Shown here: positions 2,638-27,876 of the stretch, piece after piece | How the letters are laid out: each line of letters starts with the position of its first letter | How positions within the stretch are numbered: the first letter of the stretch is position 1 | Assembly (NCBI GenBank): GCA_964354105.1 | Contig: CAYGXM010000003.1 | Location: 789 to 64,788 of the forward strand | DNA length: 64,000 bases | Origin: Candidatus Woesearchaeota archaeon | GTDB taxonomy: Archaea; Nanobdellota; Nanobdellia; UBA10117 | Direction: 5' to 3' | The notes under the pieces: model-generated | What the model was told of the DNA's origin: nothing | Seen by the model: only the letters and a program-made list of their open reading frames with translations | The model's database searches: none | Program-made: the position numbers and the translations under genes

Positions 2638-2731
2638 GGGCCGATGGTCTAACGGTTATGACGCACGCATGGCAAGCTCAGAGATGAGCCCACAGTGCGT
2701 GAGGCTCCGGGTTCGAATCCCGGTCGGTCCA
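2638..2731 (+). tRNA. tRNA-Ala (anticodon GGC) with a 21-nt intron at 37/38
   Basis: Acceptor GGGCCGA/TCGGTCC contains the G3:U70 Ala identity pair. Anticodon stem CACGC/GCGTG, loop AT-GGC-A. The predicted intron at 2675-2695 (AGCTCAGAGATGAGCCCACAG) contains the hairpin GCTCA/TGAGC. T arm CCGGG-TTCGAAT-CCCGG. A32 is unusual. Confidence 0.8.
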
Positions 2732-2734
2732 CTT

Positions 2735-2843
2735 GGCGAGGTAGTTTAGCCTGGTGGAACGCCGCTCTCATATAACGCGGCACTGCCGTTGGGCAGTTGT
2801 CTGAGACAGGCGGATGTCGCCGGTTCAAATCCGGCCCTCGCCA
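2735..2843 (+). tRNA. tRNA with anticodon CAT (elongator Met or Ile2) and a 35-nt intron at 37/38
   Basis: Acceptor GGCGAGG/CCTCGCC. Anticodon stem CCGCT/GGCGG, loop CT-CAT-A. The predicted intron at 2773-2807 contains the hairpin ACTGCC/GGCAGT. T arm GCCGG-TTCAAAT-CCGGC. It starts only 3 nt after tRNA-Ala. Confidence 0.8.
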
Positions 2844-2849
2844 TTATGA

Positions 2850-2888
2850 AAAAATCAGGGTTTAAAACCTGGCTTTAGCCTGATTTTT
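2850..2888. terminator. 10-bp stem hairpin flanked by T/A runs (putative bidirectional terminator)
   Basis: AAAAATCAGG (2850-2859) pairs with CCTGATTTTT (2879-2888). It lies between the tRNA-Met 3' end and the 3' end of the convergent minus-strand gene. Confidence 0.4.
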
Positions 2889-2895
2889 CCATTCC

Positions 2896-2949
2896 AAAAA
2901 TTGCCACATTTGACCAGCTAAAATTCCATCAAACCAAGTGGCAATTTTT
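2896..2949. terminator. 12-bp stem inverted repeat flanked by T/A runs
   Basis: AAAAATTGCCAC (2896-2907) pairs with GTGGCAATTTTT (2938-2949), with a 30-nt loop. The stop of the minus-strand gene is at 2962. Confidence 0.35.
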
Positions 2950-2961
2950 TGTTAATTAAAA

Positions 2962-3375
2962 CTAAATACTGTCATAAGGATACATGGTCTGTGGTATTGA
3001 TATGGGCATTCTAAATTCTACATATCTCAATGTCACGCCTTTGCCTTCGTACTTGTCGGAAAAGGTTTGCAAATAAGTTTTAACTTTATCCAGGCGCCAG
3101 TCTGAACTTTGGGGTGTTGCTACAATAATATTTCCCTGCAGTTCAATGTCCATCATTGCTTTTCTGTGCCCTTTTCTTGAAATGCGGGAAGTTCTGTAAA
3201 TTTCCATAACATTGTCATCTGTGCGCAAATGATATTCCTTATTTCCAAGCTTCTCGAGCGAATTCAATCCTTTGTTGAATTTCCCGATAATGTCCTCTAA
3301 GCCCTTCTGCAGCTCATTAAACAGGATAGCTTCCATACCATCAAATAGAAACAAATAGAGATTTAAATCTTCCAT
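2962..3375 (-). CDS. hypothetical protein (137 aa; alternative start at 3336 gives 124 aa)
   Basis: The ORF track gives 2962..3657, but its first 94 aa are low-complexity and antisense to the divergent gene. The plausible part starts at ATG 3375 (MEDLNLY...) or ATG 3336 (MEAILFNEL...). The latter fits the palindromic TATA at 3359-3370. Confidence 0.5.
   Translation of the reverse strand: MEDLNLYLFLFDGMEAILFNELQKGLEDIIGKFNKGLNSLEKLGNKEYHLRTDDNVMEIYRTSRISRKGHRKAMMDIELQGNIIVATPQSSDWRLDKVKTYLQTFSDKYEGKGVTLRYVEFRMPISIPQTMYPYDSI
3359..3370. promoter_or_regulatory. perfectly palindromic TATA-like box AGATTTAAATCT between divergent genes
   Basis: The 12-nt perfect palindrome is centred 24.5 nt from the plus-strand ATG (3389) and 28.5 nt from the minus-strand ATG at 3336. 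Confidence 0.4.
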
Positions 3376-3388
3376 ATCAAAAAATGAT

Positions 3389-4693
3389 ATGGAGGCTGCT
3401 AGGGAGAAGGAAAAAGGAAAGCTTGCCAAGAAAGCCGGCAAGAAAACACTTGCAGGAATGTCTTGGCTTGGAAGAAAAACTGGGAAGCTTTTCAGGGATT
3501 CTATTCTTTTGGCAAGGCCTTTGAACAAAAAAGAAAGCTTTGTATTTTCAAAAGTCCGGCCATACTTAAAAGAAGGCGAGGAATTCAAGCTGCAGAAAGC
3601 GATTAAGCAAGGCAAGGCTAAGATCAAATTAAACAGATACGGCTGGTCTTTTCTCATTTCTGGAAATGACCTGCGGCCAAAAATCTTTTTTGTAAAGCCC
3701 GAGAAAAGAAGATTGAATCCGGATCATGATATAGAGGAAAAGCAGCAATTTTGGATAGAAGAATTGGACAAAAGAATCCGGAGACAATTTTTTGAACATA
3801 ATTTCCGGGAATTTGCAGAAAAAGCATGGACAGCAGCGCCACAATTCATTGGGCCAAATATTATTGGGTTAAAACATGTCAAGGAAGCTGCAGCTTTGCA
3901 GTTGTTTTGCAAAGAGCAGACTCATATTTTATTGCTTGGAGACCCTGGAACAGGAAAAACTGATATTTTGCGGTCAACTGCAGATTTGAATCCAATATCT
4001 GTATTTGGATTGGGCTCAGGAACATCAGGAGTCGGCTTAGCTGTTACAGTAAAAGGAAAATATGTGAGTCCTGGATTGTTGCCGAAAGCAGATTTGGGTT
4101 TGGCATGCATAGACGAATTAAATCTGATGAAGAAGGACGATTACGCGGCCCTGTACAACGCAATGGAAAAAGGCTTCATCACATATGACAAAGGAGGGCA
4201 TCACTACAGGTTTAATGCCCGCATTAAAGTATTGGCTACTGGAAATCCAAAAGGAGATAAATTTACAGCCTATGATTTGGAAACTGTAAAATCACAAATT
4301 CCTTTTGATTCTGCGCTTTTATCGAGATTCCATTTAGTTTTTATTGTAAAGAAGGCGACATTAAATGAATTTTCAGAAATTGCAGAAAAGATAATTTCTG
4401 AAGACAAAGTAAAAATAAATCTTGCAGATATTTTATTCTTGAAGAATTATGTTCGTTTTGTAAACAAATTAGATGCAGAAATCCCACATAATCTTGCTGA
4501 AAAAATCAAGGACTTTGTAACAAATCTGAAGGAAAAGGAAGCAGAACTGCCATTTGAGATAACCCCAAGAACAGTAATCGGAGTTACAAGACTGGCAAAA
4601 GCATCAGCCAGGATGGAACTAAGAAGTATTGTAGAAGGAAAAGATTTGGACAGGGTATTTAATATTATTACAAAAGCATATTTACTCTCATGA
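3389..4693 (+). CDS. MCM-family AAA+ ATPase without a recognisable MCM N-terminal domain
   Basis: Walker A LLLGDPGTGKT, Walker B ACIDELNLM, sensor-1 VLATGNP and an Arg-finger-like SRFHLVF occur in MCM-like order and spacing. Only about 160 Lys-rich aa precede the ATPase core, and no OB-fold or Zn motif was seen. Confidence 0.7.
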   Translation: MEAAREKEKGKLAKKAGKKTLAGMSWLGRKTGKLFRDSILLARPLNKKESFVFSKVRPYLKEGEEFKLQKAIKQGKAKIKLNRYGWSFLISGNDLRPKIFFVKPEKRRLNPDHDIEEKQQFWIEELDKRIRRQFFEHNFREFAEKAWTAAPQFIGPNIIGLKHVKEAAALQLFCKEQTHILLLGDPGTGKTDILRSTADLNPISVFGLGSGTSGVGLAVTVKGKYVSPGLLPKADLGLACIDELNLMKKDDYAALYNAMEKGFITYDKGGHHYRFNARIKVLATGNPKGDKFTAYDLETVKSQIPFDSALLSRFHLVFIVKKATLNEFSEIAEKIISEDKVKINLADILFLKNYVRFVNKLDAEIPHNLAEKIKDFVTNLKEKEAELPFEITPRTVIGVTRLAKASARMELRSIVEGKDLDRVFNIITKAYLLS

Positions 4694-4711
4694 TTTTAGA
4701 GTAATTGTTTA

Positions 4712-7700
4712 CTAGGCATTCTTTAATGCTTCTTCTTGTCTTTTTCTCCATATTTCCTCACGGTAACTATCGATTGCAGCTTCACGGCGCAGAATTCTTG
4801 GCGGCATGCCAAGCCACTTGTAGAACTCATGAGGAAGAGATGTAAATACCACGTTCTTTTTGGCTTTATTAACTTCTTCAATAGATTTAATTATATCTAT
4901 TTTATTTTCTGCGAAATATTTCAAAACTTCTGTTCTCAGGTATATATTTTCCGCTAGCAAACGATTATCGTATCTACCCATTAGTATACCTTCTACATTA
5001 GTAGTGCCGTTTTCGTAAAGACTTTGCTGTGCTTTTGCTTCGATTAATTCTTCTAATAATAGAAAGCCCGCTTCGCGTCTTTCATCTGCCTCACCACGCA
5101 TCTCCTGCCAAAGTGTATTTATTTTGTCTAAATTTATGTGTAAAGCTTCGTCATTAAAGTAAATATTTTGTGAAACATCATCCCTAAATGAATACACAGG
5201 CTTCAAATGTTTAAGGCCAACTATGCTACTAATTTTTCTATCTAGCTCTCCAATAGAATCTAACAATGTTAAATATGCAGTATCATTTGGTTTTATTCTC
5301 GCAACCCTTTTAGTATCCAATATGCCAAAATCCTTTTTGTTTTTATTTCGGATTTTAAACGCTAGTTTTGAAAAATAGTCACCTATGTCTTGGAGTGTAT
5401 AGTCCTGATAGTTTGGAGGCGACTCACTTTTCCACAAATCAGTAAACCGCTCTTTCGCGTTCGCGAATTTGGTTTTTACGGCCTCGATGCGCCGTGCCCA
5501 CCCCTCGCTTCTCTTTTGTTTGGCTTCCTCTTTTTCCTTGAGCTTATTTTCTCTGATTGTAACCCACTCCATCTCTTGCTCCCTTAGCCGGGCCGCTTTT
5601 TTCCGAGCCCTAAATTCTCTTTCTGTAGCCTTTTTCTTCCTATCTTTTAGCCATCGCGTATACCAGGAACTACTGCTATCTACAAGACCTTGCGCAGCTA
5701 GCTTGCCATAAACATAAGGTATTCCAAACAATTGATAAAAGCCATAACCAACATCTCTACAAAAGTCGCCAATTGTGTCGAGATAATCTTCTAAAACTTT
5801 TACATCATATTTTTTATCAACCTTGAGTTTTATTTGGTCTAATCTTGTAACAATTCGATTGACTAGCGGATTACTATGTATGTCAACAAAATAGTCGCCA
5901 TCTTTTAACCAAAAAGCCTCTTTTTCAGTATCATATTTTAGCTTATCTTTAAAGTAAAGTTCTATCAATTTTTCAATGGATATGCGCATAGGTGCTCCGC
6001 GAAGATGTTTTCCGCTAAAAACATATCTTTCGCCGCCAATGATGTCTGACAAATAATTTTGCGCTTTTGGGCCTACAGAGACTGAGTCGCCAGCATATAA
6101 CGCGGCAGGTATTATGTCCTTAGACATTATTTCGCGAAAGAAATCGTCAGCCTTAATTTTCAGTGTATATTTCTTAGCCAATTTCTTACGTAACTTTTCT
6201 CTTTTTAATTCACGTTTTGCTTCAACATCTACATAAATATTTAATTTTTTCTTAAGGTCGTCTTTTATTTCATGCAAGTTATATTTTAGGTCACTCAAGG
6301 TAAATTTGTTTTTCGCATAAACCCCTACATCAAGTGCACCAAGTCCTATTGCAGCAAGTCCTGCAAGCGCTTGAGGCCCGTATGCTTTGTAAAGCGCGTC
6401 TAGACCAATAACAGCACCTATGCCGATGGCTGTTCCTGCGCCTATTACTCCGCCCGCCAGCAAAATTCCTTCTAGCGTAATATTGTGGCTGCTAGAAATT
6501 TTTTTCTTTGAAGATGGTGTTCGCGAGCGCATTTTGTCATAAACACTGCCTAGCCATTCTCTTACAGAACCACCAACTTCTATTATTTTTGCAGCTCCGG
6601 TAATGGCTCCACTATGGAAACGTCGCGAGATTGAATAATTTTGTTTAAATTTATTTGTCAAATCTGATTTATACTCAGATTCAAAAATATCTGCAAGCTC
6701 TTCAAGTAGTGCGCTCGATGGGTGCTTCATAATTCTATCATCACCCAATACGCCGCTAAGGAACAAATCCTCAAATGCTTCATACTCTGCAGTTAAAACT
6801 TCTATTTGATTATCTGCTATTATGCTGTTTCTACCTTTAGTTAATGTTACTGCTCTTGGCAGATTTACCCAAAAATCTACTCCTGTTTGCACTAAGCTAT
6901 TCATTAATTTGTAATGCAATGTTTTCTCGTCAAAAGGAATATTTTCATTTTTAATGAAAAGTCCGCGCTGTGTTAAAATAATTTTGTCGGAGTTAGAGTC
7001 ATCTTGAGATCCTGGACTTGTTAAATTCTGACATGAGTAAGCAATTGTCAACCCTTTGTCGCTGCCCTTGAGGTCAACGTCAACACCTTTTGATTTTGTA
7101 TATGCGCGTTCTGGATTATTGACCCACGCACCGTTAAAATAAACTCTTGCATCATTTGAGCTAACATGGCCAACATACTTAATGGCATTGGCCTTGAGCT
7201 GTTCAGGCTTGGTTATACTTTTTGGAATGTACATCGTAACTGTTGTTCCCTTGCCATTAAGCTCGAGCGGCGCATCTTTTGGCAATAAGTACACATCTGC
7301 AAGCCACTTTCCATCCTTTGTTTTTGATTCATTGTGCACAACTGATAAAATAGTATAATCTAGATTGGAAGTTTTACTCAATGTAGCTACAAATTCAGCC
7401 ATGTCTAGAGTTGAATACCAGCCTATACCATGTTCGCCTATTTTATTTGGGTTGAATTCTTTTGGCGAATTGTACGGAACTAAAAGGTCCCTAATTTGGC
7501 CCTCAAGGTCCATTCCACAGCCCTTGTCTGCTACGGTTAGGACATAGTATCGATCTTGCTCTTCTACACTATAATTTATTTTTCTTTCAGCATCAGATGG
7601 CTCATACGAATCCATCGAGTTCTGGTTAAGCTCGCGCAATGATGCATAACGATTGCCAAATTGTGCCTCTATTGTTTTATTAACAATGCCTTCAAACAAT

Positions 7701-7912
7701 TTTGGCGAAGTCTGCTTTTCGCGTGTTAATTCTATATATTTTACAGCCTGCTCAAAGCTGGCATTTTTAGTAGATTTAGGCAAAGCCTTAATAAAGCCAT
7801 CAAAATCGCCCGCCATTTGCATCATTACTAAATCATTGAGGTAGAATCTCTGATGGGGGTAGCTATTAAGATCCGTTAACAACTCATCAAGACCGTTATA
7901 AGATTCGTACAT
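4712..7912 (-). CDS. 1066-aa GHKL/Hsp90-like ATPase with central glycine-zipper hydrophobic segments and a basic coiled-coil region
   Basis: Bergerat-fold motifs: RELNQNSMDS (N box), VADKGCGMD (G1) and IGEHGIGWYS (G2), at residues about 93-166. Residues about 481-533 read GILLAGGVIGAGTAIGIGAVIGL...ALAGLAAIGLGALDVGVYA. Residues about 753-823 are a K/R/E-rich helix. It is the last gene of the operon. Confidence 0.7.
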   Translation of the reverse strand: MYESYNGLDELLTDLNSYPHQRFYLNDLVMMQMAGDFDGFIKALPKSTKNASFEQAVKYIELTREKQTSPKLFEGIVNKTIEAQFGNRYASLRELNQNSMDSYEPSDAERKINYSVEEQDRYYVLTVADKGCGMDLEGQIRDLLVPYNSPKEFNPNKIGEHGIGWYSTLDMAEFVATLSKTSNLDYTILSVVHNESKTKDGKWLADVYLLPKDAPLELNGKGTTVTMYIPKSITKPEQLKANAIKYVGHVSSNDARVYFNGAWVNNPERAYTKSKGVDVDLKGSDKGLTIAYSCQNLTSPGSQDDSNSDKIILTQRGLFIKNENIPFDEKTLHYKLMNSLVQTGVDFWVNLPRAVTLTKGRNSIIADNQIEVLTAEYEAFEDLFLSGVLGDDRIMKHPSSALLEELADIFESEYKSDLTNKFKQNYSISRRFHSGAITGAAKIIEVGGSVREWLGSVYDKMRSRTPSSKKKISSSHNITLEGILLAGGVIGAGTAIGIGAVIGLDALYKAYGPQALAGLAAIGLGALDVGVYAKNKFTLSDLKYNLHEIKDDLKKKLNIYVDVEAKRELKREKLRKKLAKKYTLKIKADDFFREIMSKDIIPAALYAGDSVSVGPKAQNYLSDIIGGERYVFSGKHLRGAPMRISIEKLIELYFKDKLKYDTEKEAFWLKDGDYFVDIHSNPLVNRIVTRLDQIKLKVDKKYDVKVLEDYLDTIGDFCRDVGYGFYQLFGIPYVYGKLAAQGLVDSSSSWYTRWLKDRKKKATEREFRARKKAARLREQEMEWVTIRENKLKEKEEAKQKRSEGWARRIEAVKTKFANAKERFTDLWKSESPPNYQDYTLQDIGDYFSKLAFKIRNKNKKDFGILDTKRVARIKPNDTAYLTLLDSIGELDRKISSIVGLKHLKPVYSFRDDVSQNIYFNDEALHINLDKINTLWQEMRGEADERREAGFLLLEELIEAKAQQSLYENGTTNVEGILMGRYDNRLLAENIYLRTEVLKYFAENKIDIIKSIEEVNKAKKNVVFTSLPHEFYKWLGMPPRILRREAAIDSYREEIWRKRQEEALKNA

Positions 7913-7914
7913 GT

Positions 7915-9537
7915 TTAAGAACCCCCTGCTTTTGCATTAGAGCGCGATATCATACGAATTACATCGCGCACCACAAGTTTGATCTCCTGCCGTAATTCTT
8001 TCAAGCTGCGCGGTTCTTCAATGTTAATTAAGAAATCGTTGAAAAGTGCATATGCTTTTTTGTAATCAAACTTGTCGCTAGCTACATACGGATGCGCTGC
8101 ATTAACATATACTACTTTATGGCGGTCCGAAAAAGTAAACACGCGAGACCCCACACTTCCAGGATTAACGACCTTCATTGTATAAAATGTATGATCAGGT
8201 TCGTCTAAATGCCTATAAATTAAACACAGATTAGGGTAGATTTGTAAATGTGGCATATCCAAATACTTTGCTCTATCATAGAGAAAGTCATTTTCAAAAT
8301 CTTCAAATTTTCCCCAATTTTTCCAAAATTCATATGTAGACGCTTGGTTCGTCACAAGGGCGATATTATCTAATTCAGGACCTATAAAATCTTCAAAAGT
8401 CGAGAAATCTCCTAACTTTAAAATATATTTTTTATCGTTAAAAATTAACTTTTGTAATGTACTCATATTTTTTGGATGTCCGCTAGTTGCAAATGCAACA
8501 TCCTTAACAAGGTCGGCTAATTTACTTGCATCACTAGGATATTCTAACTTAACATGCCTTAGGTACTCTTCAAGTAAATCGTAGATGCAATCTACGGCTT
8601 TAAAGTAATTATCATTTTGTTTGAATTCGTCTCTTCCTTCAACAGGGTTGACGGCGGACGGGAAGTTTAAAACCGCTCCGAGCGAATCTGCAAAACGCTC
8701 GCGTACGCGCACGCCTTGTGAGACAAGCTTTACTCGCTCGTTATTATCTATAGCAAGAGAAACAAATTGTTTCAATTTTTTGCCTTTGACATCAAATTCA
8801 ACTTCGCGATGTAATCTGTCAGGGGTTTGCGGATTTATCTGCTCGTTATTTACGTAAATAGCCGCCTTTTGAATAGGTATGTCTGCCAGTTGATTAGCTA
8901 AATATTTCTGGAGCCCATCCAGATTGTTTTTTGTTCTAATTGTTACTTTTGTACTGCGTAAACCTGGGTGTAAATTTGTTACTTTTCTATTAAGCTTCAT
9001 TCTCAAGTCCGAAACTTCAGAACCCGTCGAATAAAATGTCATTTTATTGCATTCAAGTCCAGTATTTGTTTCGACGTCAATTGAATTTCGCAAATCTTTC
9101 AAACAATAGTTAAGCGTTGACAAAAATCCAACTCCAAATTTACCTATAGTCTCAATGCCTTCTTTCTGCGTACTAAATGGAACTATTAAATCACTTAATA
9201 CGTCATAAAGAGTCATTGCTTTGCCAGCATCGCATATCGTTACATATTTTGGTCGAGCTTCTACCCAGATATTATACTGTTCGCAGTTCTCAGGCTTTGC
9301 ATCTATTGAATTAAGAATTACCTCAAGCACAGGGCGTTCTTGCTCAGGGAATTGTTTTATGGCCTCTTCACGCATTATTTTTTCTATGAATTTTCTATTT
9401 GTGCTGTACACTTTTATTTCATCAAGAGGCTTATTTTGGTCTATTAAATCAACTATTCTCTGAAGATTGTCTATGTTCAATCCGGACAATATCCAATCGG
9501 TTAGTGGGAGATCATACTCTCGCGCAAATAAGGCCAT
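7915..9537 (-). CDS. 540-aa GHKL/Hsp90-like ATPase
   Basis: Motifs are LEVILNSIDAKPEN (N box), ICDAGKAMT (G1) and IGKFGVGFLS (compare Hsp90 IGQFGVGFYS). The ORF-track start 9546 is GTG. The first ATG at 9537 lies 1 nt after the upstream stop (TAATATG). Confidence 0.7.
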   Translation of the reverse strand: MALFAREYDLPLTDWILSGLNIDNLQRIVDLIDQNKPLDEIKVYSTNRKFIEKIMREEAIKQFPEQERPVLEVILNSIDAKPENCEQYNIWVEARPKYVTICDAGKAMTLYDVLSDLIVPFSTQKEGIETIGKFGVGFLSTLNYCLKDLRNSIDVETNTGLECNKMTFYSTGSEVSDLRMKLNRKVTNLHPGLRSTKVTIRTKNNLDGLQKYLANQLADIPIQKAAIYVNNEQINPQTPDRLHREVEFDVKGKKLKQFVSLAIDNNERVKLVSQGVRVRERFADSLGAVLNFPSAVNPVEGRDEFKQNDNYFKAVDCIYDLLEEYLRHVKLEYPSDASKLADLVKDVAFATSGHPKNMSTLQKLIFNDKKYILKLGDFSTFEDFIGPELDNIALVTNQASTYEFWKNWGKFEDFENDFLYDRAKYLDMPHLQIYPNLCLIYRHLDEPDHTFYTMKVVNPGSVGSRVFTFSDRHKVVYVNAAHPYVASDKFDYKKAYALFNDFLINIEEPRSLKELRQEIKLVVRDVIRMISRSNAKAGGS

Positions 9538-9538
9538 A

Positions 9539-12095: not shown

Positions 12096-12106
12096 TTTGA
12101 GTCCTC

Positions 12107-14597: not shown

Positions 14598-14741
14598 GCC
14601 TCGGTAGCTCAGCCAGGAAGAGCGTTAGGTTTTCAAAAAAGAGATGGAAATCCGCTAAGCCTTGGTATGCGCAAAGTCCCCTTTGCGGGATTGATTGCAT
14701 CAATAAGGCAAAGGTCGCCGGTTCGATTCCGGCCCGAGGCA
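14598..14741 (+). tRNA. tRNA-Thr (anticodon GGT) with two predicted introns (32 nt at 28/29, 38 nt at 37/38)
   Basis: Acceptor GCCTCGG/CCGAGGC. D arm GCTC-AGCCAGGAA-GAGC. T arm GCCGG-TTCGATT-CCGGC. Removing 14627-14658 and 14668-14705 gives a perfect anticodon arm TTGCC-TTGGTAA-GGCAA and a 74-nt mature tRNA. The isotype depends on this splice model. Confidence 0.7.
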
Positions 14742-19596: not shown

Positions 19597-19608
19597 AAGG
19601 AATTGAAG

Positions 19609-20208: not shown

Positions 20209-20244
20209 CAATAAGCTTAAATCTTTCTTTTTTGATTCAAATTA

Positions 20245-20685
20245 ATGGTCACAACTTACAGAAAGTATGTAGCAGCCATAATATTCTATAGAACCAAATC
20301 TGCAGATTTGTTTTTGTTATTGCATCGTAAACAGAATTGGAGAGGCTGGGAATATGTCAAAGGCGGCCTTCTTCCTGGTGAATCTCTTAGGGCAGGCTTG
20401 AGGCGAGAAATAAGAGAGGAAACAGGGGCAAGGAAGTTTAAAGTTATCAAGAAGCTTCCACTAAAAATAAGATACAAGTGGCCGAAATCATATTTGAAGG
20501 ATGAAAAGCGATGGAGGGGTGCAGTACAGCAAGTTTATGTTGCTGAAGTCTTCAGCAAGAAAATCAAGCTTGACAAAAAAGAGCACTCTGGTTATAGATG
20601 GATTTCAGGAAAAACTACAGTTAAGATGCTGACATATAAGGAGCCAAAGGCTGCAATGAGATTCGTTTTGAAGAAATATATTTAG
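20245..20685 (+). CDS. Nudix hydrolase
   Basis: Complete Nudix box GGLLPGESLRAGLRREIREETGA (Gx5Ex7REUxEExGU). A TATA-like AAGCTTAAATC lies about 26 nt upstream of the ATG. Confidence 0.85.
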   Translation: MVTTYRKYVAAIIFYRTKSADLFLLLHRKQNWRGWEYVKGGLLPGESLRAGLRREIREETGARKFKVIKKLPLKIRYKWPKSYLKDEKRWRGAVQQVYVAEVFSKKIKLDKKEHSGYRWISGKTTVKMLTYKEPKAAMRFVLKKYI

Positions 20686-20766
20686 GGTAAGTGTTAAGGT
20701 TTGTGGAGCTTAGCAGAAGTTGCTTTTCCTAGACATAAGAGCTTACATGCGAGCAGGAAGCGAGCA

Positions 20767-22399: not shown

Positions 22400-22460
22400 T
22401 TCAAGCTAGAATTAGCAAGTCTTAAAAAGCAAGCGCCTAAGTTTACTTTAAAATTTCAGC

Positions 22461-22955
22461 ATGGCAAAAAATGACAAAACAGGAATACATAATTCAAATG
22501 TATTTTACATGTCATCAGGCATGCTGCCGCCAATGACAAAAGTCGATAATCTTTATGGAAAATACAAAAAGCAAATCCAAGAATTAATTACTAATTACGA
22601 AGATCAAGACGGCCAAAAAACTCAGATAGAATATTATATTTCTGAGTTGCCCACTATCGCAACAATGCTAGGCAACAGCGAAGAAATTGTTAAAAAGGTT
22701 CTTAATGCTTTGGAAAAATATTCTGGAAAAGAGCCAGCAAAAGAACCTCTATTGCTAAACCCGCCATTATGGCCAAGACATCTGGCTGCAGCATACTATT
22801 TTGCAACTAAAGACACTGCAGAGCGCAGGAAACAGAAGGACATAGCAGATGCTTTTGGAATAGACCCTAAAACACTAAATAAAGGCATTAAAGATGTAAC
22901 CGGCCTTCTCGACGGCTTCTTTCAAGAAAGTAGCAAGGCGCAGAAAGCTTTATAA
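22461..22955 (+). CDS. hypothetical protein with a single TFB-like cyclin-repeat/HTH segment
   Basis: HLAAAYYFATKDTAERRKQKDIADAFGIDPKTLNKGIKDV aligns by eye with the second cyclin repeat of the window's own TFB ([40 protein letters not shown]). Confidence 0.45.
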   Translation: MAKNDKTGIHNSNVFYMSSGMLPPMTKVDNLYGKYKKQIQELITNYEDQDGQKTQIEYYISELPTIATMLGNSEEIVKKVLNALEKYSGKEPAKEPLLLNPPLWPRHLAAAYYFATKDTAERRKQKDIADAFGIDPKTLNKGIKDVTGLLDGFFQESSKAQKAL

Positions 22956-22991
22956 TATTGAAAATATAGTAAATAATATACCAAAGGTATT

Positions 22992-23417
22992 ATGCAGATG
23001 ACAAGCCAAGATACAATAGCGACGGTCACAGTTCAGAACATTTCAGAACTTGAGAGCCAAATTCGAAAAGCAAAACACGTCAACATAGATTTTTCTTTTG
23101 AGCGCAATAGATTAGGGCCAACACAGCAATACAAGTACGTACCAATGATAATTGCAAAGACAGAGAAAAAAACTGTAATATATGATGGTATTAATGAAGA
23201 AGACCCAGATTTTGGATACTGCAGGATACGAACGTTAAGCGCTGGAATAAACCTTGCTGATAGGCTGGAAGGTGAAGTTTATATTACAATTGATGGTGTG
23301 CCGTACAACAAGGTAAGAAAAGTGCTCAAGACTCATATAGAAGCGTTGCATGAAAAGATGCAGGCAAGGAAAACGAAAGACAGTATACCCACAGCGTATA
23401 ACAGCTTAAATACCTGA
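22992..23417 (+). CDS. hypothetical protein (141 aa)
   Basis: ATG-started ORF with AAAGCTTTATAATATT upstream. No motif recognised. Confidence 0.5.
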   Translation: MQMTSQDTIATVTVQNISELESQIRKAKHVNIDFSFERNRLGPTQQYKYVPMIIAKTEKKTVIYDGINEEDPDFGYCRIRTLSAGINLADRLEGEVYITIDGVPYNKVRKVLKTHIEALHEKMQARKTKDSIPTAYNSLNT

Positions 23418-23478
23418 AGATTTGGACAAAAATACCTAGAGCAAGCTTAAAAACCTAATTTTGCTATTTTGATTTGTT

Positions 23479-23961
23479 ATGCCAGAGAAAACAAACAAAT
23501 TAGAAAAACTGAAAGCAGAATATGACAAATTAAAACAGAAATATAAATTACCACAATTTGATGAGCTGAATAATGAATTTGAAATTTATGATATCAAAAC
23601 AAATTCTTTCATAATAAGGGAAATAAGCAGAAGGATTATCCGCAAGGCAGAAGATTTTCTCAGCATGTTGAATCCGATTCTAAACCCAAATCCAAACAGC
23701 CTGCACAGCATAATTGAAACAAAGATTTTCGAGAAGCAGGATTTGGAGCCGATGTTTGATTTTTACAGGAAATTATTCCAGCTGGCGCATAAAGGCATAA
23801 CTGCCTCTTTCGAATCTGAAGCTGTAGAAGCTGCATGGATAAATGAAGTTTGGAAAGCCTGGCCAGAAATTAAAAAACAAATTGCCGGCTATAGCAAGAA
23901 GATAACTGAAGGCTGGGGCAAAGTAGAAAAAGAAGTTTTTACAGATAAATATTTGGGCTAA
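23479..23961 (+). CDS. hypothetical protein (160 aa)
   Basis: ATG-started ORF with a TATA-like AAGCTTAAAAACC centred about 28 nt upstream, which suggests a leaderless mRNA. No motif recognised. Confidence 0.5.
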   Translation: MPEKTNKLEKLKAEYDKLKQKYKLPQFDELNNEFEIYDIKTNSFIIREISRRIIRKAEDFLSMLNPILNPNPNSLHSIIETKIFEKQDLEPMFDFYRKLFQLAHKGITASFESEAVEAAWINEVWKAWPEIKKQIAGYSKKITEGWGKVEKEVFTDKYLG

Positions 23962-23980
23962 GGGGAAGTCCTTAATGCAA

Positions 23981-24026
23981 GCGAAATTCATATTTCGCTG
24001 CACAACAAAATCTTTAAGATTTTGTT
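23981..24026 (+). terminator. two consecutive hairpins downstream of 23479..23961
   Basis: GCGAAAT-TCAT-ATTTCGC (23981-23998) and AACAAAATCT-TTA-AGATTTTGTT (24004-24026). Confidence 0.35.
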
Positions 24027-24103
24027 TGTGTCAGAGAAAGCTTAACTTGCCGCTAACAATGCTTGTAAACTTTTTGCAGACATTTACAGATTCACCTTTG
24101 GCA

Positions 24104-24117
24104 AACCTCTTAAAAGT
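24104..24117 (+). promoter_or_regulatory. TATA-like box for tRNA-Pro
   Basis: AACCTCTTAAAAGT, with its core centred 27.5 nt upstream of the tRNA 5' end at 24139. Confidence 0.45.
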
Positions 24118-24138
24118 ATGATACTAACTATTGGTTCT

Positions 24139-24382
24139 GGGGCTGTAGTCTAACTTGGTAGGACATATCCTTGGGGTGGTCGTCCACAAGCGCAGCTTGA
24201 TGTGCTTGTTCGATTGAAACAAAATGGGTATAATCTGAGTTCAAACAGCCTGCGGAGCTGTAAGATGCTCCTCAGAAAGCAAAGCCCTAGCTGAATAAAA
24301 TTCAGCGGGGACCAGAAAAAGTGCGATACTTTTTCTTGGTCTTGTCTCTGCTTGTTCGGCTGAGAAAATCTCAGCAGCCCCA
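24139..24382 (+). tRNA. tRNA-Pro (anticodon GGG) with two predicted introns (48 nt at 37/38, 123 nt at 59/60 in the T-loop)
   Basis: Acceptor GGGGCTG/CAGCCCC. D arm GTCT-AACTTGGTA-GGAC. Anticodon arm TATCC-TTGGGG[intron 24177-24224]T-GGGTA. Variable TAAT. T arm CTGAG-TTCAAA[intron 24246-24368]T-CTCAG. Discriminator A. The mature length would be 73 nt, and G37 fits Pro. Confidence 0.75.
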
Positions 24383-24387
24383 TTTTT

Positions 24388-24831
24388 ATGGTGCACATAC
24401 CGAAAGATACGCTCGAGAGAATCCTAGAAGAAGCGAACTCAGTAGTGGGAACTAAATTATACACTGCAATGGAAAAGGCCTGCCTAAAAGTTCTTCATAA
24501 TGGTTCATACGGCTTGCAACTGGTTGAACTTAATTACATCTCATTTTCTGGCGGCAAATTTGTAGCTAAGCGCAAAAAAATACCATCTCCTGCAGAATTG
24601 TCTGCACAATATATAGCCAAAAAACTATTGGACAGAGGCGCAATTTACACCAGATCCAGCCCTCTTGCCGATGAGAACTGCTCCATACAATCTGCAAGGC
24701 AGGCTTTTAGATATCTAAAAACTGTAAGGGCAGTAAAAATTCACCGCACAAGCCGTCAAGGTTCAGTCGTCACATATAAAGTAATAAATAGAAGAAAATT
24801 AAAGGAGATTGCTGAAGGTAATTTTACATAA
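24388..24831 (+). CDS. hypothetical protein, paralog A of a tandem pair (147 aa)
   Basis: The ATG is 5 nt after the tRNA-Pro 3' end. It shares LE+xLExAN near the N-terminus, KFVxxxKxIPSPxxxxAQYxAKK in the middle and an identical C-terminal IAEGNFT with the next gene. Confidence 0.55.
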   Translation: MVHIPKDTLERILEEANSVVGTKLYTAMEKACLKVLHNGSYGLQLVELNYISFSGGKFVAKRKKIPSPAELSAQYIAKKLLDRGAIYTRSSPLADENCSIQSARQAFRYLKTVRAVKIHRTSRQGSVVTYKVINRRKLKEIAEGNFT

Positions 24832-24888
24832 TGACAAAAATTCTACCGCAAGATTAAATAACAAGCAACAACATATTATAACACTGGG

Positions 24889-25344
24889 ATGAGCCAGTTA
24901 AACAGCGAGCTTGAAAAGGTGCTTGAAAAAGCAAATGAATTCTTAAGCGGAAATCCCGATTTAGACCCTGAAGAAGTATTGCACAAGGCAAGCGAACTTG
25001 TATTCTCAAGAAATTCGCACTATGGCAATTTGTTGTTAAACATGAAGTATATTTACTTGAGGAAGAATAAATTTGTAAAAAATGGCAAAGCTATACCTTC
25101 ACCCCATGACGCAATAGCGCAATATGCAGCCAAAAAGATTCTTATGCAGAAGGACAGGAAAATTTTCAAGGCAATATACCTGAGAGACGAGCTCTGCAGC
25201 GCGGTGTCTGCAGGACACGCGCTCGTTCGTCTGGCAGATGATTATGGAGGCTTAAAGATTCAAAGCATACGCCACAAGTATCATTCATACACCATTAATG
25301 ATAAAGAGAAACTAGAGCAAATTGCAGAGGGAAATTTCACTTAG
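24889..25344 (+). CDS. hypothetical protein, paralog B of a tandem pair (151 aa)
   Basis: See paralog A. The C-terminus is KLEQIAEGNFT, against KLKEIAEGNFT in paralog A. Confidence 0.55.
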   Translation: MSQLNSELEKVLEKANEFLSGNPDLDPEEVLHKASELVFSRNSHYGNLLLNMKYIYLRKNKFVKNGKAIPSPHDAIAQYAAKKILMQKDRKIFKAIYLRDELCSAVSAGHALVRLADDYGGLKIQSIRHKYHSYTINDKEKLEQIAEGNFT

Positions 25345-25404
25345 TTATAGTCGCAATTTGGCAAAGAAAAGACTTTTAAATTGCGAATGGCCATTTAAGT
25401 TAAA

Positions 25405-26805
25405 ATGAGGCCACGACATCTAGTTTTAGCACTGCTTTTCCTGTTGTTAATAGGCACTGTAAGAGCCGAGCTTGAAATCAAGGTTAATCCTGTTAAAGAT
25501 GCAATCGACTGGAACGGCACAGCAGTTTATGATGTAACTGTTACAGGCATCGCAGACCCTATACGATTAAGACCAGCAACTTTTGAATGGGGATCTGTTC
25601 GCTTCGACGATCCTATTCTGACATCAGGCTCATCGACAAGAGTTTACGTCCAGCCGCCTCGCGATGTTTTAATTGGAAATTATGCGGTTGAAATTCTAGC
25701 ATTATCATATGTTAATGCAGATATCCGCACATCAGACTTTTTACGACTGACAGTTCTTTCAGAATTGGCGCACATCGAGCCGAATTGGGGCATACCGGCA
25801 GAAATAGAGCCCGGCTCAGTTGATGCCAATTTAATTTTGAAAAACACAGGGACAACTGCAGTTGAAGACATAACTGCAAAATTAAGCTCCCCTCTTCTTA
25901 AAACACCGGTTGAACTTGATGTCGGTGCAATGCCAAAAGGCGAAGCGAGAGAAGTTTGGGATGAAACTTTGGACATTCCGCTGGACACACCTGCACAACC
26001 ATATGACTTTACCCTGTCGGTTTACAAAGGCACGGAATTCGTCAAAGATTATAAATTTACACCTACTGTATTAGAAAAAGAATCAGTTAAAGTGGATGTA
26101 TTTGAAGATCCAAAACTTTTAGGCAAGACTTACATGGTCAGCATTAAAAACATCGGCAACACTGTGGCAGACGATTATTATAAGATAGAAGTGCCGAGCT
26201 GGCAGCGTTTCTTCATTGAGGGAAAAGTAAAGCCCGCGGTAACATTAATCGGAAAAAATGCAGAAGCTGCCTGGCCATACTCCCTGCCGATTGGAGCCAG
26301 CACGACTTTAGTCTATTCCATTTCATTCCTGCCATTGCTTGCAATCCTGATATCTTTGTTGTTGCTGCTGTACATTGGCTTCTGGTATTTCGGCCAAGGG
26401 CTTTCAATCTCAAAAGAGCTAAGCTCTGCAGAACGCGCTTTGAAAGTTAAATTGCATGTAAAGAACAACTCAACAAAGCCGCAAAGAAATGTCATAATTG
26501 AAGATACAATCCCAACACCGTTGACATTATCCAGAGAATTTGCAACTATGCACCCAACCGCAATAAAAAAATCCGATGGTGCTGTAAAAGTGCTCTGGAA
26601 GTTTGATGTCATCTGGCCGCATGAAGAGAAAATACTGACTTACAACATGAAATCTTCATTAGCAATATCTGGAATGATAATGCTGCCTGCCGCAAAGATA
26701 AGAAAAAAGGGCGATGTTGGCGAGACTCCAAAAGTATTCTTGAGCAACAGGGTATCTGTAAAAGGAAGAATCAGGGCAACAGGCTCTGAAGAGACTTACA
26801 AGTAA
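25405..26805 (+). CDS. secreted/membrane protein with Ig-like (CARDB/NEW3-like) repeats and one internal TM helix
   Basis: An N-terminal signal-like MRPRHLVLALLFLLLIGTVRA. The segment LILKNTGTTAVEDITAKLSSP is typical of CARDB/NEW3-type domains. There is a TM segment LLAILISLLLLLYIGFWYF. A TATA-like AAAGACTTTTAAATTG lies about 30 nt upstream. Confidence 0.6.
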   Translation: MRPRHLVLALLFLLLIGTVRAELEIKVNPVKDAIDWNGTAVYDVTVTGIADPIRLRPATFEWGSVRFDDPILTSGSSTRVYVQPPRDVLIGNYAVEILALSYVNADIRTSDFLRLTVLSELAHIEPNWGIPAEIEPGSVDANLILKNTGTTAVEDITAKLSSPLLKTPVELDVGAMPKGEAREVWDETLDIPLDTPAQPYDFTLSVYKGTEFVKDYKFTPTVLEKESVKVDVFEDPKLLGKTYMVSIKNIGNTVADDYYKIEVPSWQRFFIEGKVKPAVTLIGKNAEAAWPYSLPIGASTTLVYSISFLPLLAILISLLLLLYIGFWYFGQGLSISKELSSAERALKVKLHVKNNSTKPQRNVIIEDTIPTPLTLSREFATMHPTAIKKSDGAVKVLWKFDVIWPHEEKILTYNMKSSLAISGMIMLPAAKIRKKGDVGETPKVFLSNRVSVKGRIRATGSEETYK

Positions 26806-26876
26806 GTCTCTAAAGGGTGAAGGAGATTGTAAGCCTGAATTTGTGTTAATGTTTAGATCTGTCTGAATTCAAGAGA

Positions 26877-26890
26877 TAACACTTTTAAAT
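26877..26890 (+). promoter_or_regulatory. TATA-like box for tRNA-Tyr
   Basis: TAACACTTTTAAAT, with its core centred 27.5 nt upstream of the tRNA 5' end at 26913. Confidence 0.5.
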
Positions 26891-26912
26891 TCAAATTTTA
26901 ACTCTAAATCAT

Positions 26913-27073
26913 CCCGCCTTAGCTCAGACTGGTTAGAGCGCCTGGCTGTAGACAGCACTTATCGCTAGATAAGCACTGAATTATAGCGCTCAGAACCCGG
27001 GAGGTCGCTGGTTCAAAGAAAACAGCGAAGCTGTTTAGGCTTTACTGCTTTCGAACAGATCCGGCAGGCGGGA
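26913..27073 (+). tRNA. tRNA-Tyr (anticodon GTA) with two predicted introns (44 nt at 37/38, 42 nt at 59/60)
   Basis: Acceptor CCCGCCT/AGGCGGG carries C1:G72, the archaeal/eukaryal Tyr identity pair. Anticodon arm CCTGG-CTGTAG[intron 26952-26995]C-CCGGG. Variable AGGTC. T arm GCTGG-TTCAAA[intron 27018-27059]T-CCGGC. The mature length would be 75 nt. Confidence 0.8.
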
Positions 27074-27147
27074 TTCCTAGTCAAAAACATTTTAAAAGCC
27101 CAAATTCCAGCAAAAGATTTATATTTAAGATAGGAGAGATAACTGTC

Positions 27148-27780
27148 ATGGCCAAGTTAAAAATGTCTACTAGGTTAGCAGAATTTGTCGGAATTATGCT
27201 GGGCGACGGGTCTATTGTTGCCAACAGCAGAATTAAACAGTATGCTGTTTATGTTTGCGGGAATTCCGAAGATGATGAAAGATATCTTCTAAATTTTATC
27301 AAGCCGTTAATTAAAGATTTGTTTGCTATTGAGATGTCTGTAAAATATCACCAAAAATTCAAGGAAATTTTATTGTACAAGTATAGTAAAGATTTTGTTA
27401 AAATTTTAGAGGGAGTCGGGCTAAAAGCAGGAAATAAAAAAGATAATAATGTTGGCTTCCCCAACTGGATTTTTACCGATAAGAAATTCATTGCGGCTTG
27501 TTTACGCGGATTGTTTAATACAGACGGCACAATCTATAAAAGATGGAAACACAAAGGTTATTTTATAGAGTTTACGTCTAATATATTTAAACTTCAAACA
27601 GACATTATAAAAGCTCTAGATTTATTAGAAATTAATCATAGTATATGGTTTAGGAGCAAAGGTCCTATAGCTAATAGGTGTAGTATTTGTTCTCAGGCTG
27701 CAGTGAAAAGATTTTTAAGCACTGTAGGCTCGAGTAATCCTAAGTACAATAAAATTGTACTGAAAGCCCGGGTAGTCTAG
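27148..27780 (+). CDS. free-standing double-motif LAGLIDADG homing endonuclease (210 aa)
   Basis: Two LAGLIDADG motifs: LAEFVGIMLGDGSI and FIAACLRGLFNTDGTI. The ATG is preceded by TAGGAGAG. The last 15 nt, including the stop, overlap the 5' end of tRNA-Asp. Confidence 0.85.
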   Translation: MAKLKMSTRLAEFVGIMLGDGSIVANSRIKQYAVYVCGNSEDDERYLLNFIKPLIKDLFAIEMSVKYHQKFKEILLYKYSKDFVKILEGVGLKAGNKKDNNVGFPNWIFTDKKFIAACLRGLFNTDGTIYKRWKHKGYFIEFTSNIFKLQTDIIKALDLLEINHSIWFRSKGPIANRCSICSQAAVKRFLSTVGSSNPKYNKIVLKARVV

Positions 27781-27876
27781 CGGTTAGGATAGAAATGCTG
27801 TGAGAAATTATGGCACTATTGCCCTGTCAATTACCGCAGAACGGTTCAGACCCGAGTTCAAATCTCGGCCCGGGCG
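27766..27876 (+). tRNA. tRNA-Asp (anticodon GTC) with two predicted introns (27 nt at 29/30, 12 nt at 37/38)
   Basis: Acceptor GCCCGGG/CCCGGGC with discriminator G. D arm GTCT-AGCGGTTA-GGAT. Removing 27795-27821 and 27830-27841 gives the anticodon arm GAACC-CTGTCAC-GGTTC, with a perfect stem. The variable loop is 4 nt (AGAC). T arm CCGAG-TTCAAAT-CTCGG. Confidence 0.7.

What the first reader, a model, noticed from the sequence alone, without database searches (positions are those of the whole stretch)
2638..27876. Exceptional tRNA intron load: 6 of 8 tRNA genes interrupted, 10 predicted introns, four genes with two introns
Hand-folding gives single canonical (37/38) introns in tRNA-Ala (21 nt) and tRNA-CAT (35 nt). 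It gives double introns in Thr (28/29 + 37/38), Asp (29/30 + 37/38), Pro (37/38 + 59/60) and Tyr (37/38 + 59/60). Only the two tRNA-Lys genes are continuous. In each case, removing the proposed introns restores a standard 72-75-nt cloverleaf with fully paired stems. Multiple and non-canonical tRNA introns are established for some archaeal lineages (for example Thermoproteales). This density in one 64-kb window is still striking. It implies a splicing endonuclease with relaxed BHB specificity (inference).
Basis: partly seen in the sequence, partly recalled or inferred. Interest (0 to 1): 0.6.

Follow-up and report, generated by a model that had tools for sequence, protein, structure and literature searches.

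The report
Intron-riddled tRNA genes in DPANN archaeon
Six of the eight tRNA genes in this window of a tiny DPANN archaeon are really split by ten short archaeal-type introns, but this load is normal for the whole genome and its relatives and is a known kind of gene structure.

Summary
The window holds eight tRNA genes. Removing them gives perfect cloverleaves. Relatives and metagenome contigs carry intron-less alleles that match nine of the ten predicted junctions; only Tyr 37/38 has none.

The load is not exceptional for this organism, a 723-kb DPANN (Nanoarchaeia/Woesearchaeota-like) genome. I count 38 tRNA genes, 27 of them interrupted, about 41 introns and three triple-intron genes. Relatives show the same pattern with fast gain and loss.

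Only one intron (Asp 29/30) has a strict bulge-helix-bulge (BHB) motif by my rule; most are relaxed. The genome and 36 of 40 relatives each show one alpha-type EndA gene, and RtcB is present. This EndA lacks the Nanoarchaeum-type loop. It has a 3-residue, lysine-rich insert at the site where a loop is known to broaden specificity.

Related intron sequences occur in different tRNA genes. All four free-standing LAGLIDADG endonuclease genes overlap a tRNA gene end.

Heavy tRNA disruption with alpha4 EndA in DPANN was published in 2018, so this is a new member of a known kind.

The parts
410..483 (+). tRNA-Lys(CTT), continuous
   Evidence: ARAGORN and Rfam at 69.5 bits.
2638..2731 (+). tRNA-Ala(GGC) gene with G3:U70 and one intron
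   Evidence: Rfam 52.1 bits; solver; the spliced form is called Ala(GGC).
2675..2695 (+). Ala intron, 21 nt, at 37/38. Near-strict BHB: central helix 3/4, outer helix 5 bp, inner helix 5 bp.
   Evidence: An intron-less orthologue exists in G004 (L014:257-327).
2735..2843 (+). tRNA-CAT gene (elongator Met or Ile2 type; G1:C72), one intron. It lies 3 nt after tRNA-Ala.
   Evidence: Rfam 52.6 bits; solver.
2773..2807 (+). CAT intron, 35 nt, at 37/38. Central helix CTCA/TGAG 4/4, outer helix 5 bp, and an enlarged 5' bulge (relaxed motif).
   Evidence: A 97% identical intron sits in G004 (L014:147-253). Intron-less CAT tRNA genes with the same anticodon loop (about 82% identical to the spliced sequence) are in G001 and G005.
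14598..14741 (+). tRNA-Thr(GGT) gene with two introns
   Evidence: Rfam 43.3 bits; solver; the spliced form is called Thr(GGT).
14627..14658 (+). Thr intron 1, 32 nt, at 28/29 in the anticodon stem. Central helix AGCG/CGCT 4/4 and an inner helix of 8 bp. The 3' site lies in a 3x3 internal loop.
   Evidence: A homologous 27-nt intron sits at the same site in G010 (L023:3093-3216). Intron-less Thr(GGT) genes are in G005, G011 and G012.
14668..14705 (+). Thr intron 2, 38 nt, at 37/38. Central helix TTGG/TCAA 4/4, outer helix 5 bp, no inner helix in register (relaxed). Its 3' end carries the motif GCGGGATTGATTGCATCAATA, shared with the Ile(GAT) and Arg(CCT) introns.
24139..24382 (+). tRNA-Pro(GGG) gene with two introns. 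Rfam and ARAGORN both miss it.
   Evidence: Acceptor/D-arm scan; solver; the spliced form is called Pro(GGG). The syntenic same-genus orthologue has no intron (L004:2823-2894).
24177..24224 (+). Pro intron 1, 48 nt, at 37/38. Central helix 3/4 and outer helix 6 bp (relaxed).
   Evidence: Relatives carry introns of 13, 32 or 41 nt, or none, at this site.
24246..24368 (+). Pro intron 2, 123 nt, at 59/60 in the T-loop. Central helix TTCA/AGAA 3/4 and outer helix 5 bp (the T-stem).
   Evidence: Metagenome contigs in X1 and X3 skip exactly 123 nt here. The intron aligns over the whole 64-nt 37/38 intron of a CAT tRNA gene in same-genus G001, apart from a 56-nt internal insertion.
26913..27073 (+). 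tRNA-Tyr(GTA) gene (C1:G72) with two introns. Rfam and ARAGORN both miss it.
26952..26995 (+). Tyr intron 1, 44 nt, at 37/38. Central helix 3/4 and outer helix 5 bp (relaxed).
   Evidence: The first 22 nt are identical to the G001 Tyr intron. Every relative examined has an intron at this site.
27017..27058 (+). Tyr intron 2, 42 nt, in the T-loop at 58/59 or 59/60 (1-nt ambiguity, same product). Central helix GTTC/GAAC 4/4 and inner helix 4 bp.
   Evidence: The 3' half of the tRNA is contiguous and 94-100% identical in G001, G003, G004 and G005 (100% in G001 and G005). One metagenome contig in X1 skips 45 nt spanning this intron.
27766..27876 (+). tRNA-Asp(GTC) gene with two introns. Its first 15 nt are overlapped by the 3' end of a LAGLIDADG ORF.
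   Evidence: 42 bits; solver; the spliced form is called Asp(GTC).
27795..27821 (+). Asp intron 1, 27 nt, at 29/30. Strict hBHBh' motif: outer helix 4 bp, 3-nt bulges, central helix 4 bp, inner helix 7-8 bp.
   Evidence: The consensus fold of four genomes keeps the motif, with compensatory changes at 2 pairs. The intron is absent in G004, G005 and G012.
27830..27841 (+). Asp intron 2, 12 nt, at 37/38. Bulge-helix-loop type mini-intron with central helix CTGT/GCAG 4/4 and outer helix 5 bp.
   Evidence: It is absent in G001, G003 and G010, which keep only the 29/30 intron. Metagenome contigs lack both Asp introns.
45971..46045 (+). tRNA-Lys(TTT), continuous
   Evidence: 72.5 bits.

Best explanation
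These are functional tRNA genes of a small DPANN archaeon (Nanoarchaeia/Woesearchaeota-like, from freshwater sediment). They are interrupted by protein-spliced archaeal introns.

Proposed mechanism:
- In the precursor, each exon-intron junction folds into a bulge-helix-bulge motif or, for most introns here, a relaxed HBh'/BHL version of it.
- A 4-bp central helix forms between the four exon nucleotides that end 2 nt before the 5' cut and the four intron nucleotides that end 2 nt before the 3' cut.
- The anticodon stem, the T-stem or an alternative helix serves as the outer helix.
- The genome's single alpha-type EndA, inferred to be an alpha4 homotetramer, cuts both sites, and RtcB joins the exons.
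- T-loop 59/60 introns are the structural equivalent of 37/38 introns, with the T-arm standing in for the anticodon arm.

The load is a lineage-wide state, at about 1.1 introns per gene across the genome. It is kept in flux by frequent DNA-level gain and loss, and part of the gain is copying of intron sequences between different tRNA genes.

What is shown: the gene structures, the motifs, the intron-less alleles, the enzyme inventory and the shared intron sequences.

What is inferred: that splicing really happens, that EndA is a homotetramer, and that it has broad specificity.
For: - All six in-silico spliced genes give perfect cloverleaves and the correct ARAGORN calls.
- Intron-less or differently interrupted orthologues in the same genus and family match the spliced sequences across nine of the ten junctions. 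Pro is 90% identical over 72 nt in G001, Asp 92-93% over 71 nt in G005 and G012, and the Tyr 3' half 100% in G001 and G005.
- Metagenome contigs skip exactly the 123-nt Pro intron, both Pro introns, and both Asp introns.
- The Asp 29/30 motif is conserved with compensatory changes.
- EndA has an N domain, a catalytic domain, the Y/H/K triad and an acidic L10-like loop DAEGE.
- One EndA gene is found in this genome and in 36 of 40 relatives. RtcB is present.
- The genome has no uninterrupted second copy of these isoacceptors.
- Intron-intron similarity gives 24 pairs against 0-3 in shuffles, including cross-gene pairs.
Against: - There is no RNA evidence. No RNA run holds the locus, so the junctions are inferred from DNA only and several can slide by 1-3 nt without changing the product.
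- By my rigid rule most introns lack one outer helix. According to the literature, alpha4 enzymes cut only strict BHB (PMC3488258, PMC5829648).
- This EndA lacks the Nanoarchaeum-type loop.
- The genome is 87% complete, so a divergent second subunit cannot be fully excluded.
Confidence: 0.9

Rival explanations
1. The interrupted genes are decaying pseudogenes, or tRNA genes disrupted by insertions that are never removed. Functional tRNAs would come from elsewhere, either from unassembled genes or from a host.
For: The genome is tiny and only 87% complete. His, Cys and several other isoacceptors were not found. DPANN organisms depend on hosts.
Against: - All stems pair perfectly after removal of the introns.
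- The exons are conserved at 80-100% in relatives while the introns turn over.
- 27 of 38 genes would be dead, including the only copies of most isoacceptors.
- EndA and RtcB are retained in a reduced genome.
- The BHB motif is conserved with compensatory changes.
Confidence: 0.03
2. The introns are real, but they are cut by a heteromeric or otherwise unrecognised endonuclease rather than by an alpha4 homotetramer. The partner could be a divergent beta subunit or another helper protein.
For: Published enzymology says that relaxed motifs need (alpha-beta)2 or epsilon2 enzymes with specific loops (PMC5829648, PMC3488258). The best PDB hit for this EndA is the catalytic alpha subunit of the heteromeric Nanoarchaeum equitans enzyme, 3IEY_A.
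Against: - Pfam PF01974 finds exactly one full gene in this genome and in 36 of 40 relatives, including 11 genomes that are at least 90% complete. The NEQ beta subunit is detectable with this query at 2e-13, so a similar paralogue would have been seen.
- The protein keeps the acidic L10-type loop (DAEGE, like M. jannaschii DADGD). The NEQ alpha subunit has lost that loop.
Confidence: 0.12
3. Some of the junctions are placed wrongly. For example, ARAGORN's alternative readings would be right: Thr as SeC(TCA) with one 52-nt intron, and Asp as His(GTG) with one 37-nt intron.
For: ARAGORN -i gives those calls.
Against: - Those models have mismatched anticodon stems and, for Thr, a long false variable arm.
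- The two-intron models give perfect 5-bp stems.
- Intron-less Asp(GTC) and Thr(GGT) orthologues match the two-intron products base for base across the junctions.
Confidence: 0.02

Closest known systems
Multi-intron tRNA genes of Thermoproteales (Pyrobaculum, Thermofilum; Sugahara 2008, Fujishima 2010, as cited in bioRxiv 10.64898/2026.10.13.758758)
   Same: Up to three BHB-type introns per gene at canonical and non-canonical positions (28/29, 29/30, 59/60, D-loop). About 70% of genes are interrupted. Related intron sequences recur in different tRNA genes and positions, which has been read as intron transposition.
   Different: The lineage is DPANN rather than TACK, in a genome under 1 Mb. EndA is a single alpha-type gene, not (alpha-beta)2 with the Crenarchaea-specific loop. 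The load of about 1.1 per gene is lower than the 1.54 of P. calidifontis.
Disrupted tRNA genes of DPANN with alpha4/epsilon2 EndA (ARMAN-2, Woese-/Pacearchaeota; Fujishima 2011 PMC3239211, Hirata 2012 PMC3488258, Kaneta 2018 PMC5829648)
   Same: An ultrasmall archaeon with more than half of its tRNA genes interrupted, T-loop introns with relaxed motifs, and standard predictors that miss genes. Kaneta et al. explicitly link alpha4 EndAs of DPANN to a marked increase in tRNA disruption.
   Different: This EndA is not the three-unit epsilon2 type. By alignment it lacks the Nanoarchaeum/ARMAN-2 loop around the catalytic His (L3). Instead it has a 3-residue insert followed by K-E-K-R at the ASL/CSL site.
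Heavily interrupted tRNA genes of Asgard archaea (bioRxiv 10.64898/2026.10.13.758758)
   Same: Hidden introns are missed by annotation, especially outside the anticodon loop. Gains are repeated on many branches.
   Different: In Asgard archaea almost no intron families are shared across tRNA types. Here cross-gene families are evident. The load is also lower than in the focal Asgard lineages.

Membership tests
Archaeal endonuclease-spliced (BHB) tRNA introns | Removing the insert restores a canonical cloverleaf with a sensible anticodon. | tested here: met
   All six genes pass: acceptor, anticodon and T stems fully paired, D-stem 4/4 (3/4 in Ala), consensus T-loop, and ARAGORN calls Ala, Met(CAT), Thr, Pro, Tyr and Asp.
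Archaeal endonuclease-spliced (BHB) tRNA introns | A bulge-helix-bulge motif, or a relaxed HBh'/hBH/BHL form, spans both splice sites. | tested here: met
   The central helix has 4/4 pairs in 6 introns and 3/4 in 4. At least one flanking helix of 4 bp or more is present in all ten. Asp 29/30 is strict, and Ala, Thr 28/29 and Tyr T-loop are near-strict.
Archaeal endonuclease-spliced (BHB) tRNA introns | The genome encodes the splicing endonuclease EndA and the ligase RtcB. | tested here: met
   EndA is at C4:60704-61198(-). RtcB is at C6:4341-5585(-), 528 bits.
Archaeal endonuclease-spliced (BHB) tRNA introns | Spliced mature tRNA and excised or circular intron are observed as RNA. | not testable with these tools
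   No RNA run holds the locus. Only DNA metagenomes do.
alpha4-type (homotetrameric) EndA | A single EndA gene of about 170-230 aa with one N domain and one catalytic domain carrying the Y/H/K triad. | tested here: met
   The protein is 225 aa, with PF02778 at 53-121 and PF01974 at 131-217. Y161, H171 and K202 are invariant. One full gene is found in the own genome and in 36 of 40 relatives.
alpha4-type (homotetrameric) EndA | An acidic L10 loop for dimer-dimer contact is retained in the catalytic subunit. | tested here: met
   IVDAEGEVTYY aligns with M. jannaschii IVDADGDIVYY. The N. equitans alpha subunit lacks this loop.
alpha4-type (homotetrameric) EndA | Homotetrameric assembly. | not testable with these tools
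   This needs biochemistry.
Broad-specificity EndA loops (L1 CSL, L2 ASL, L3 Nanoarchaea/ARMAN-2 loop) | L3: a basic insertion around the catalytic His (NEQ residues 90-98, ARMAN-2 residues 240-247). | tested here: not met
   YPRGIKPGQDHAKW has the same length as M. jannaschii YERGANIDKEHSVY. NEQ has 6 extra residues here and ARMAN-2 has 5. All 15 homologues aligned also lack the insertion.
Broad-specificity EndA loops (L1 CSL, L2 ASL, L3 Nanoarchaea/ARMAN-2 loop) | L1/L2: an inserted surface loop in the N-terminal part carrying a key Lys (APE K44, ARMAN-2 K161). | tested here: inconclusive
   FGELHGIKEKRLE is 3 residues longer than the loop in M. jannaschii, A. fulgidus and M. kandleri. The insert sits exactly between AFU E174 and K175, where grafting the ASL broadens specificity (PMC3488258). 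HMMER aligns its Lys with ARMAN-2 K161, and the motif HG[IV]K[EK]K[RQ] is conserved in close homologues. It is far shorter than the ASL or CSL, and its function is untested.
Mobile ('transposing') BHB intron families as in Thermoproteales | Closely related intron sequences occur in tRNA genes of different isotype and/or at different positions. | tested here: met
   The Pro 59/60 intron aligns with the G001 CAT 37/38 intron: a 24/24 identical 3' block and a roughly 75% identical 5' block. The Thr, Ile and Arg(CCT) 37/38 introns share a 21-nt motif. The Ser(TGA) D-arm intron matches the G010 Pro 37/38 intron at 22/23. In all, 24 pairs were found against 0-3 in shuffles.
Self-splicing group I / group II introns | A catalytic RNA core of several hundred nucleotides. 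| tested here: not met
   The introns are 12-123 nt long, and Rfam gives no intron family hit in the window.

The most novel reading that the evidence does not exclude
In this DPANN lineage, tRNA introns may be an actively mobile DNA population. Intron copies would move between tRNA genes and positions, shown by presence/absence differences between congeners and between co-occurring strains. Free-standing LAGLIDADG homing endonuclease genes, each sitting on the end of a tRNA gene, would either drive this turnover or select for it, if introns break the endonuclease target sites. The single alpha4-type EndA would tolerate the resulting relaxed motifs through a previously undescribed 3-residue Lys-rich mini-loop at the ASL/CSL site. 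That loop would be a third, independent route to broad specificity.
Probability: 0.2. Interest if true: 0.7.

Novelty: new member of a known kind. Interest (0 to 1): 0.42.

Why it matters
The finding shows that standard annotation loses a sizeable part of the tRNA set of DPANN genomes. Rfam scored only 23 of the 38 tRNA genes found here above its cut-off. It missed Pro(GGG) and Tyr in this window and iMet, Phe and Glu(CTC) elsewhere. Apparent 'missing tRNAs' in such genomes should therefore not be read as host dependence.

It also offers a compact test case for two open questions. First, how can an alpha4-type EndA without the known specificity loops handle BHL and T-loop introns? Second, how does intron DNA get into tRNA genes? 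For the second question, the material here includes intron-plus and intron-minus alleles, homologous intron copies in different genes, and neighbouring homing-endonuclease genes.

Tried and rejected
- RNA evidence: no RNA sequencing run holds the locus, so splicing could not be checked at the RNA level.
- ARAGORN -i readings of Thr as SeC and Asp as His were rejected. They need mismatched stems and contradict intron-less orthologues.
- My first solver ranking over-split some introns: Tyr 37/38 in two steps, and Val(GAC), Ser(GCT) and Arg(CCT) as double. After re-ranking they are single introns.
- C5:58127-58236 is probably Arg(GCG) with one 37-nt 37/38 intron rather than Gly(GCC) with two. This is hand analysis and is not resolved.
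- A depth-3 search of the remaining acceptor/D-arm candidates gave nothing. The triple-intron genes had to be found by targeted acceptor patterns and looser thresholds, so more hidden genes (His, Cys) may remain.
- I looked for a C/D-box sRNA or a nested BHB intron inside the 123-nt Pro intron. Only sub-threshold Rfam snoRNA hits appear, and those lie elsewhere in the window. No consistent nested motif was found.
- The supplement of Kaneta 2018, which would define L3 in Woesearchaeota, is not held. I defined L3 from Hirata 2012.
- I did not run structure prediction of EndA, because the tools return no coordinates to measure the distance from the loop to the active site.

Full report
**What is there**

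ARAGORN in default mode and Rfam at gathering threshold see only two continuous tRNA-Lys genes plus three long tRNA matches in the window. The whole-genome Rfam search adds the Asp gene.

A scan for a 7-bp acceptor stem plus a D-arm found two more candidates. One is a 243-nt gene at 24139-24381 and the other a 160-nt gene at 26913-27072. Both have T-loops that are interrupted, which is why Rfam and ARAGORN -i miss them.

I wrote a solver that removes up to three BHB-like inserts and scores the remaining cloverleaf.
- Ala(GGC): 2675-2695
- CAT: 2773-2807
- Thr(GGT): 14627-14658 and 14668-14705
- Pro(GGG): 24177-24224 and 24246-24368
- Tyr(GTA): 26952-26995 and 27017-27058
- Asp(GTC): 27795-27821 and 27830-27841

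Each spliced product has fully paired acceptor, anticodon and T stems, a D-stem of 4/4 pairs (3/4 in Ala) and a consensus T-loop. ARAGORN without intron mode calls each with the expected anticodon. ARAGORN -i miscalls Thr as SeC and Asp as His by forcing a single intron.

**Independent support for the junctions**

I used the six in-silico spliced sequences as one BLAST query against 40 relatives. I then fetched and solved the hits.
- The same-genus genome G001 has, in the same gene order, an intron-less Pro(GGG). Its Tyr gene has the 37/38 intron but an uninterrupted T-loop (100% identical 3' half), plus an extra D-loop intron. Its Asp gene has only the 29/30 intron.
- Asp is completely continuous in G004, G005 and G012, at 85-93% identity to my spliced product.
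- Ala is continuous in G004.
- CAT is continuous in G005 and G001.
- Thr(GGT) is continuous in G005, G011 and G012. G010 has homologous introns at both 28/29 and 37/38.
- Only the Tyr 37/38 intron has no intron-less counterpart. It is conserved in all relatives examined.

Contigs of related populations in freshwater-sediment metagenomes skip exactly 123 nt at the Pro T-loop intron. Other contigs lack both Pro introns or both Asp introns.

The Asp 29/30 intron folds in four genomes into a textbook motif: helix, 4-bp helix, 3-nt bulges, inner helix. Two pairs show compensatory changes.

No RNA run holds the locus, so splicing itself remains inferred.

**Motif quality**

I applied the register rule that exon nucleotides p-5..p-2 pair with intron nucleotides n-5..n-2, with a 3-nt bulge on each strand. 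Under that rule:
- Only Asp 29/30 is strict.
- Ala 37/38 has one mismatch in the central helix.
- Thr 28/29 has its 3' site in a 3x3 internal loop.
- The Tyr T-loop intron has a good 5' bulge only.
- The six others have the outer and central helices but no inner helix in register, so they are HBh'/BHL-like. The 12-nt Asp mini-intron is one of them.

The rule is rigid, but the picture holds across the genome.

**The load is not special to the window**

The window is part of a 723-kb, 14-contig genome that is 87% complete. The closest named homologues of its EndA come from Nanoarchaeia, Woesearchaeota and DPANN MAGs.

Genome-wide I find 38 tRNA genes. Of these, 27 are interrupted by about 41 introns. 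Eight genes have two introns and three have three: initiator Met, Glu(CTC) and Phe(GAA). That is roughly 1.1 introns per gene, against 1.25 in the window. Relatives in the family and order show the same style.

Published benchmarks:
- ARMAN-2 has 56% of its genes interrupted (PMC3488258).
- Kaneta et al. [quoted passage not shown]

So the kind is known.

**The enzymes**

There is one EndA gene at C4:60704-61198(-), encoding 225 aa with an N domain and a catalytic domain. The Y/H/K triad is invariant and the acidic L10-type loop is retained. Apart from contig-end fragments, one EndA gene was found in this genome and in 36 of 40 relatives, including all 11 genomes that are at least 90% complete. 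This argues for a homotetramer. RtcB is present.

By alignment the protein lacks the basic insertion around the catalytic His that defines the Nanoarchaeum/ARMAN-2 loop. It does have three extra residues, followed by K-E-K-R (FGELHGIKEKRLE), relative to the narrow-specificity enzymes of M. jannaschii, A. fulgidus and M. kandleri. The insert sits exactly where grafting the ARMAN-2 loop makes the A. fulgidus enzyme broad-specific. HMMER aligns its Lys with ARMAN-2 K161. The motif is conserved in close homologues. A variable Lys/Glu-rich N-terminal tail of about 50 residues is also present. Whether either feature broadens specificity is untested.

**Intron turnover and mobility**

All-against-all comparison of 61 introns from this genome and the fetched loci of relatives gave 24 similar pairs, against 0-3 in shuffled sets.
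- The 123-nt Pro T-loop intron aligns over the whole 64-nt 37/38 intron of a CAT tRNA gene in the congeneric G001. The 3' block is identical at 24/24 and the 5' block is about 75% identical, with a 56-nt insertion in between. G001's own Pro gene has no intron.
- The 37/38 introns of Thr(GGT), Ile(GAT) and Arg(CCT) share GCGGGAYTGATTRCATCARTA. In this genome that motif occurs only in those introns.
- G001 holds two contigs with the same Ala-CAT pair but different intron content. That points to polymorphism within a population.

This is the pattern interpreted as intron transposition in Thermoproteales.

**Neighbourhood**

Prompted by earlier notes, I checked the 210-aa LAGLIDADG ORF at 27148-27780. 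The genome has four such paralogues. The 3' end of each overlaps a tRNA gene by 13-37 nt: Asp, Arg(TCG), initiator Met and Phe. The same arrangement is seen in G001 (Asp) and G011 (Thr(GGT)). A rough chance expectation for one ORF is about 0.04. This may be connected with intron turnover, but that link is speculation.

**Verdict**

This is a new member of a known kind. Three side leads are worth an experiment: the EndA mini-loop, the shared intron families, and the endonuclease genes on tRNA gene ends.

Noticed in passing
window 27148-27780 (+); also genome C1:96664-97350(+), C4:7552-8235(+), C5:32728-33447(-): There are four free-standing LAGLIDADG endonuclease paralogues. The 3' end of each overlaps a tRNA gene by 13-37 nt: Asp, initiator Met, Arg(TCG) and Phe. 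For Asp and Arg the stop codon is the TAG of the tRNA's D-arm. The same arrangement is seen in G001 (Asp, 82% identical protein) and G011 (Thr(GGT)).
   Followed up: partly
genome C5:32591-32740(+), C1:97314-97469(-), C4:9469-9663(+) (outside the window): Three triple-intron tRNA genes: Phe(GAA), initiator Met and Glu(CTC). Rfam and ARAGORN see none of them. His, Cys and several other isoacceptors are still not found.
   Followed up: partly
L016:123-314 and L017:76-286 (G001 contigs C34 and C45): Two contigs of one relative's assembly carry the same Ala(GGC)-CAT gene pair with different intron content. In one, Ala has a T-loop intron and CAT has none. In the other, Ala has none and CAT has a 64-nt intron. 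This suggests intron presence/absence polymorphism within a population.
   Followed up: no
window 24388-24831 and 24889-25344 (+): Two adjacent paralogous ORFs of 147 and 151 aa lie between tRNA-Pro and tRNA-Tyr. Both end in ...IAEGNFT and neither has a Pfam match.
   Followed up: no
genome C6:4341-5677(-): The RtcB match is split. Residues 23-426 of the profile lie in a 415-aa frame, and the first 26 profile positions lie just upstream behind a TAA stop. This could be a frameshift, a sequencing error or a wrongly placed start.
   Followed up: no
genome C4:60704-61198(-) (EndA): EndA has a Lys/Glu-rich, low-complexity N-terminal extension of about 50 residues. It is present in close homologues, varies in length, and is absent from more distant homologues of 174-200 aa.
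   Followed up: partly
window 2731-2735: tRNA-Ala and tRNA-CAT are separated by only 3 nt, so they are probably co-transcribed. The same pair is adjacent in G001, G004 and G011.
   Followed up: no
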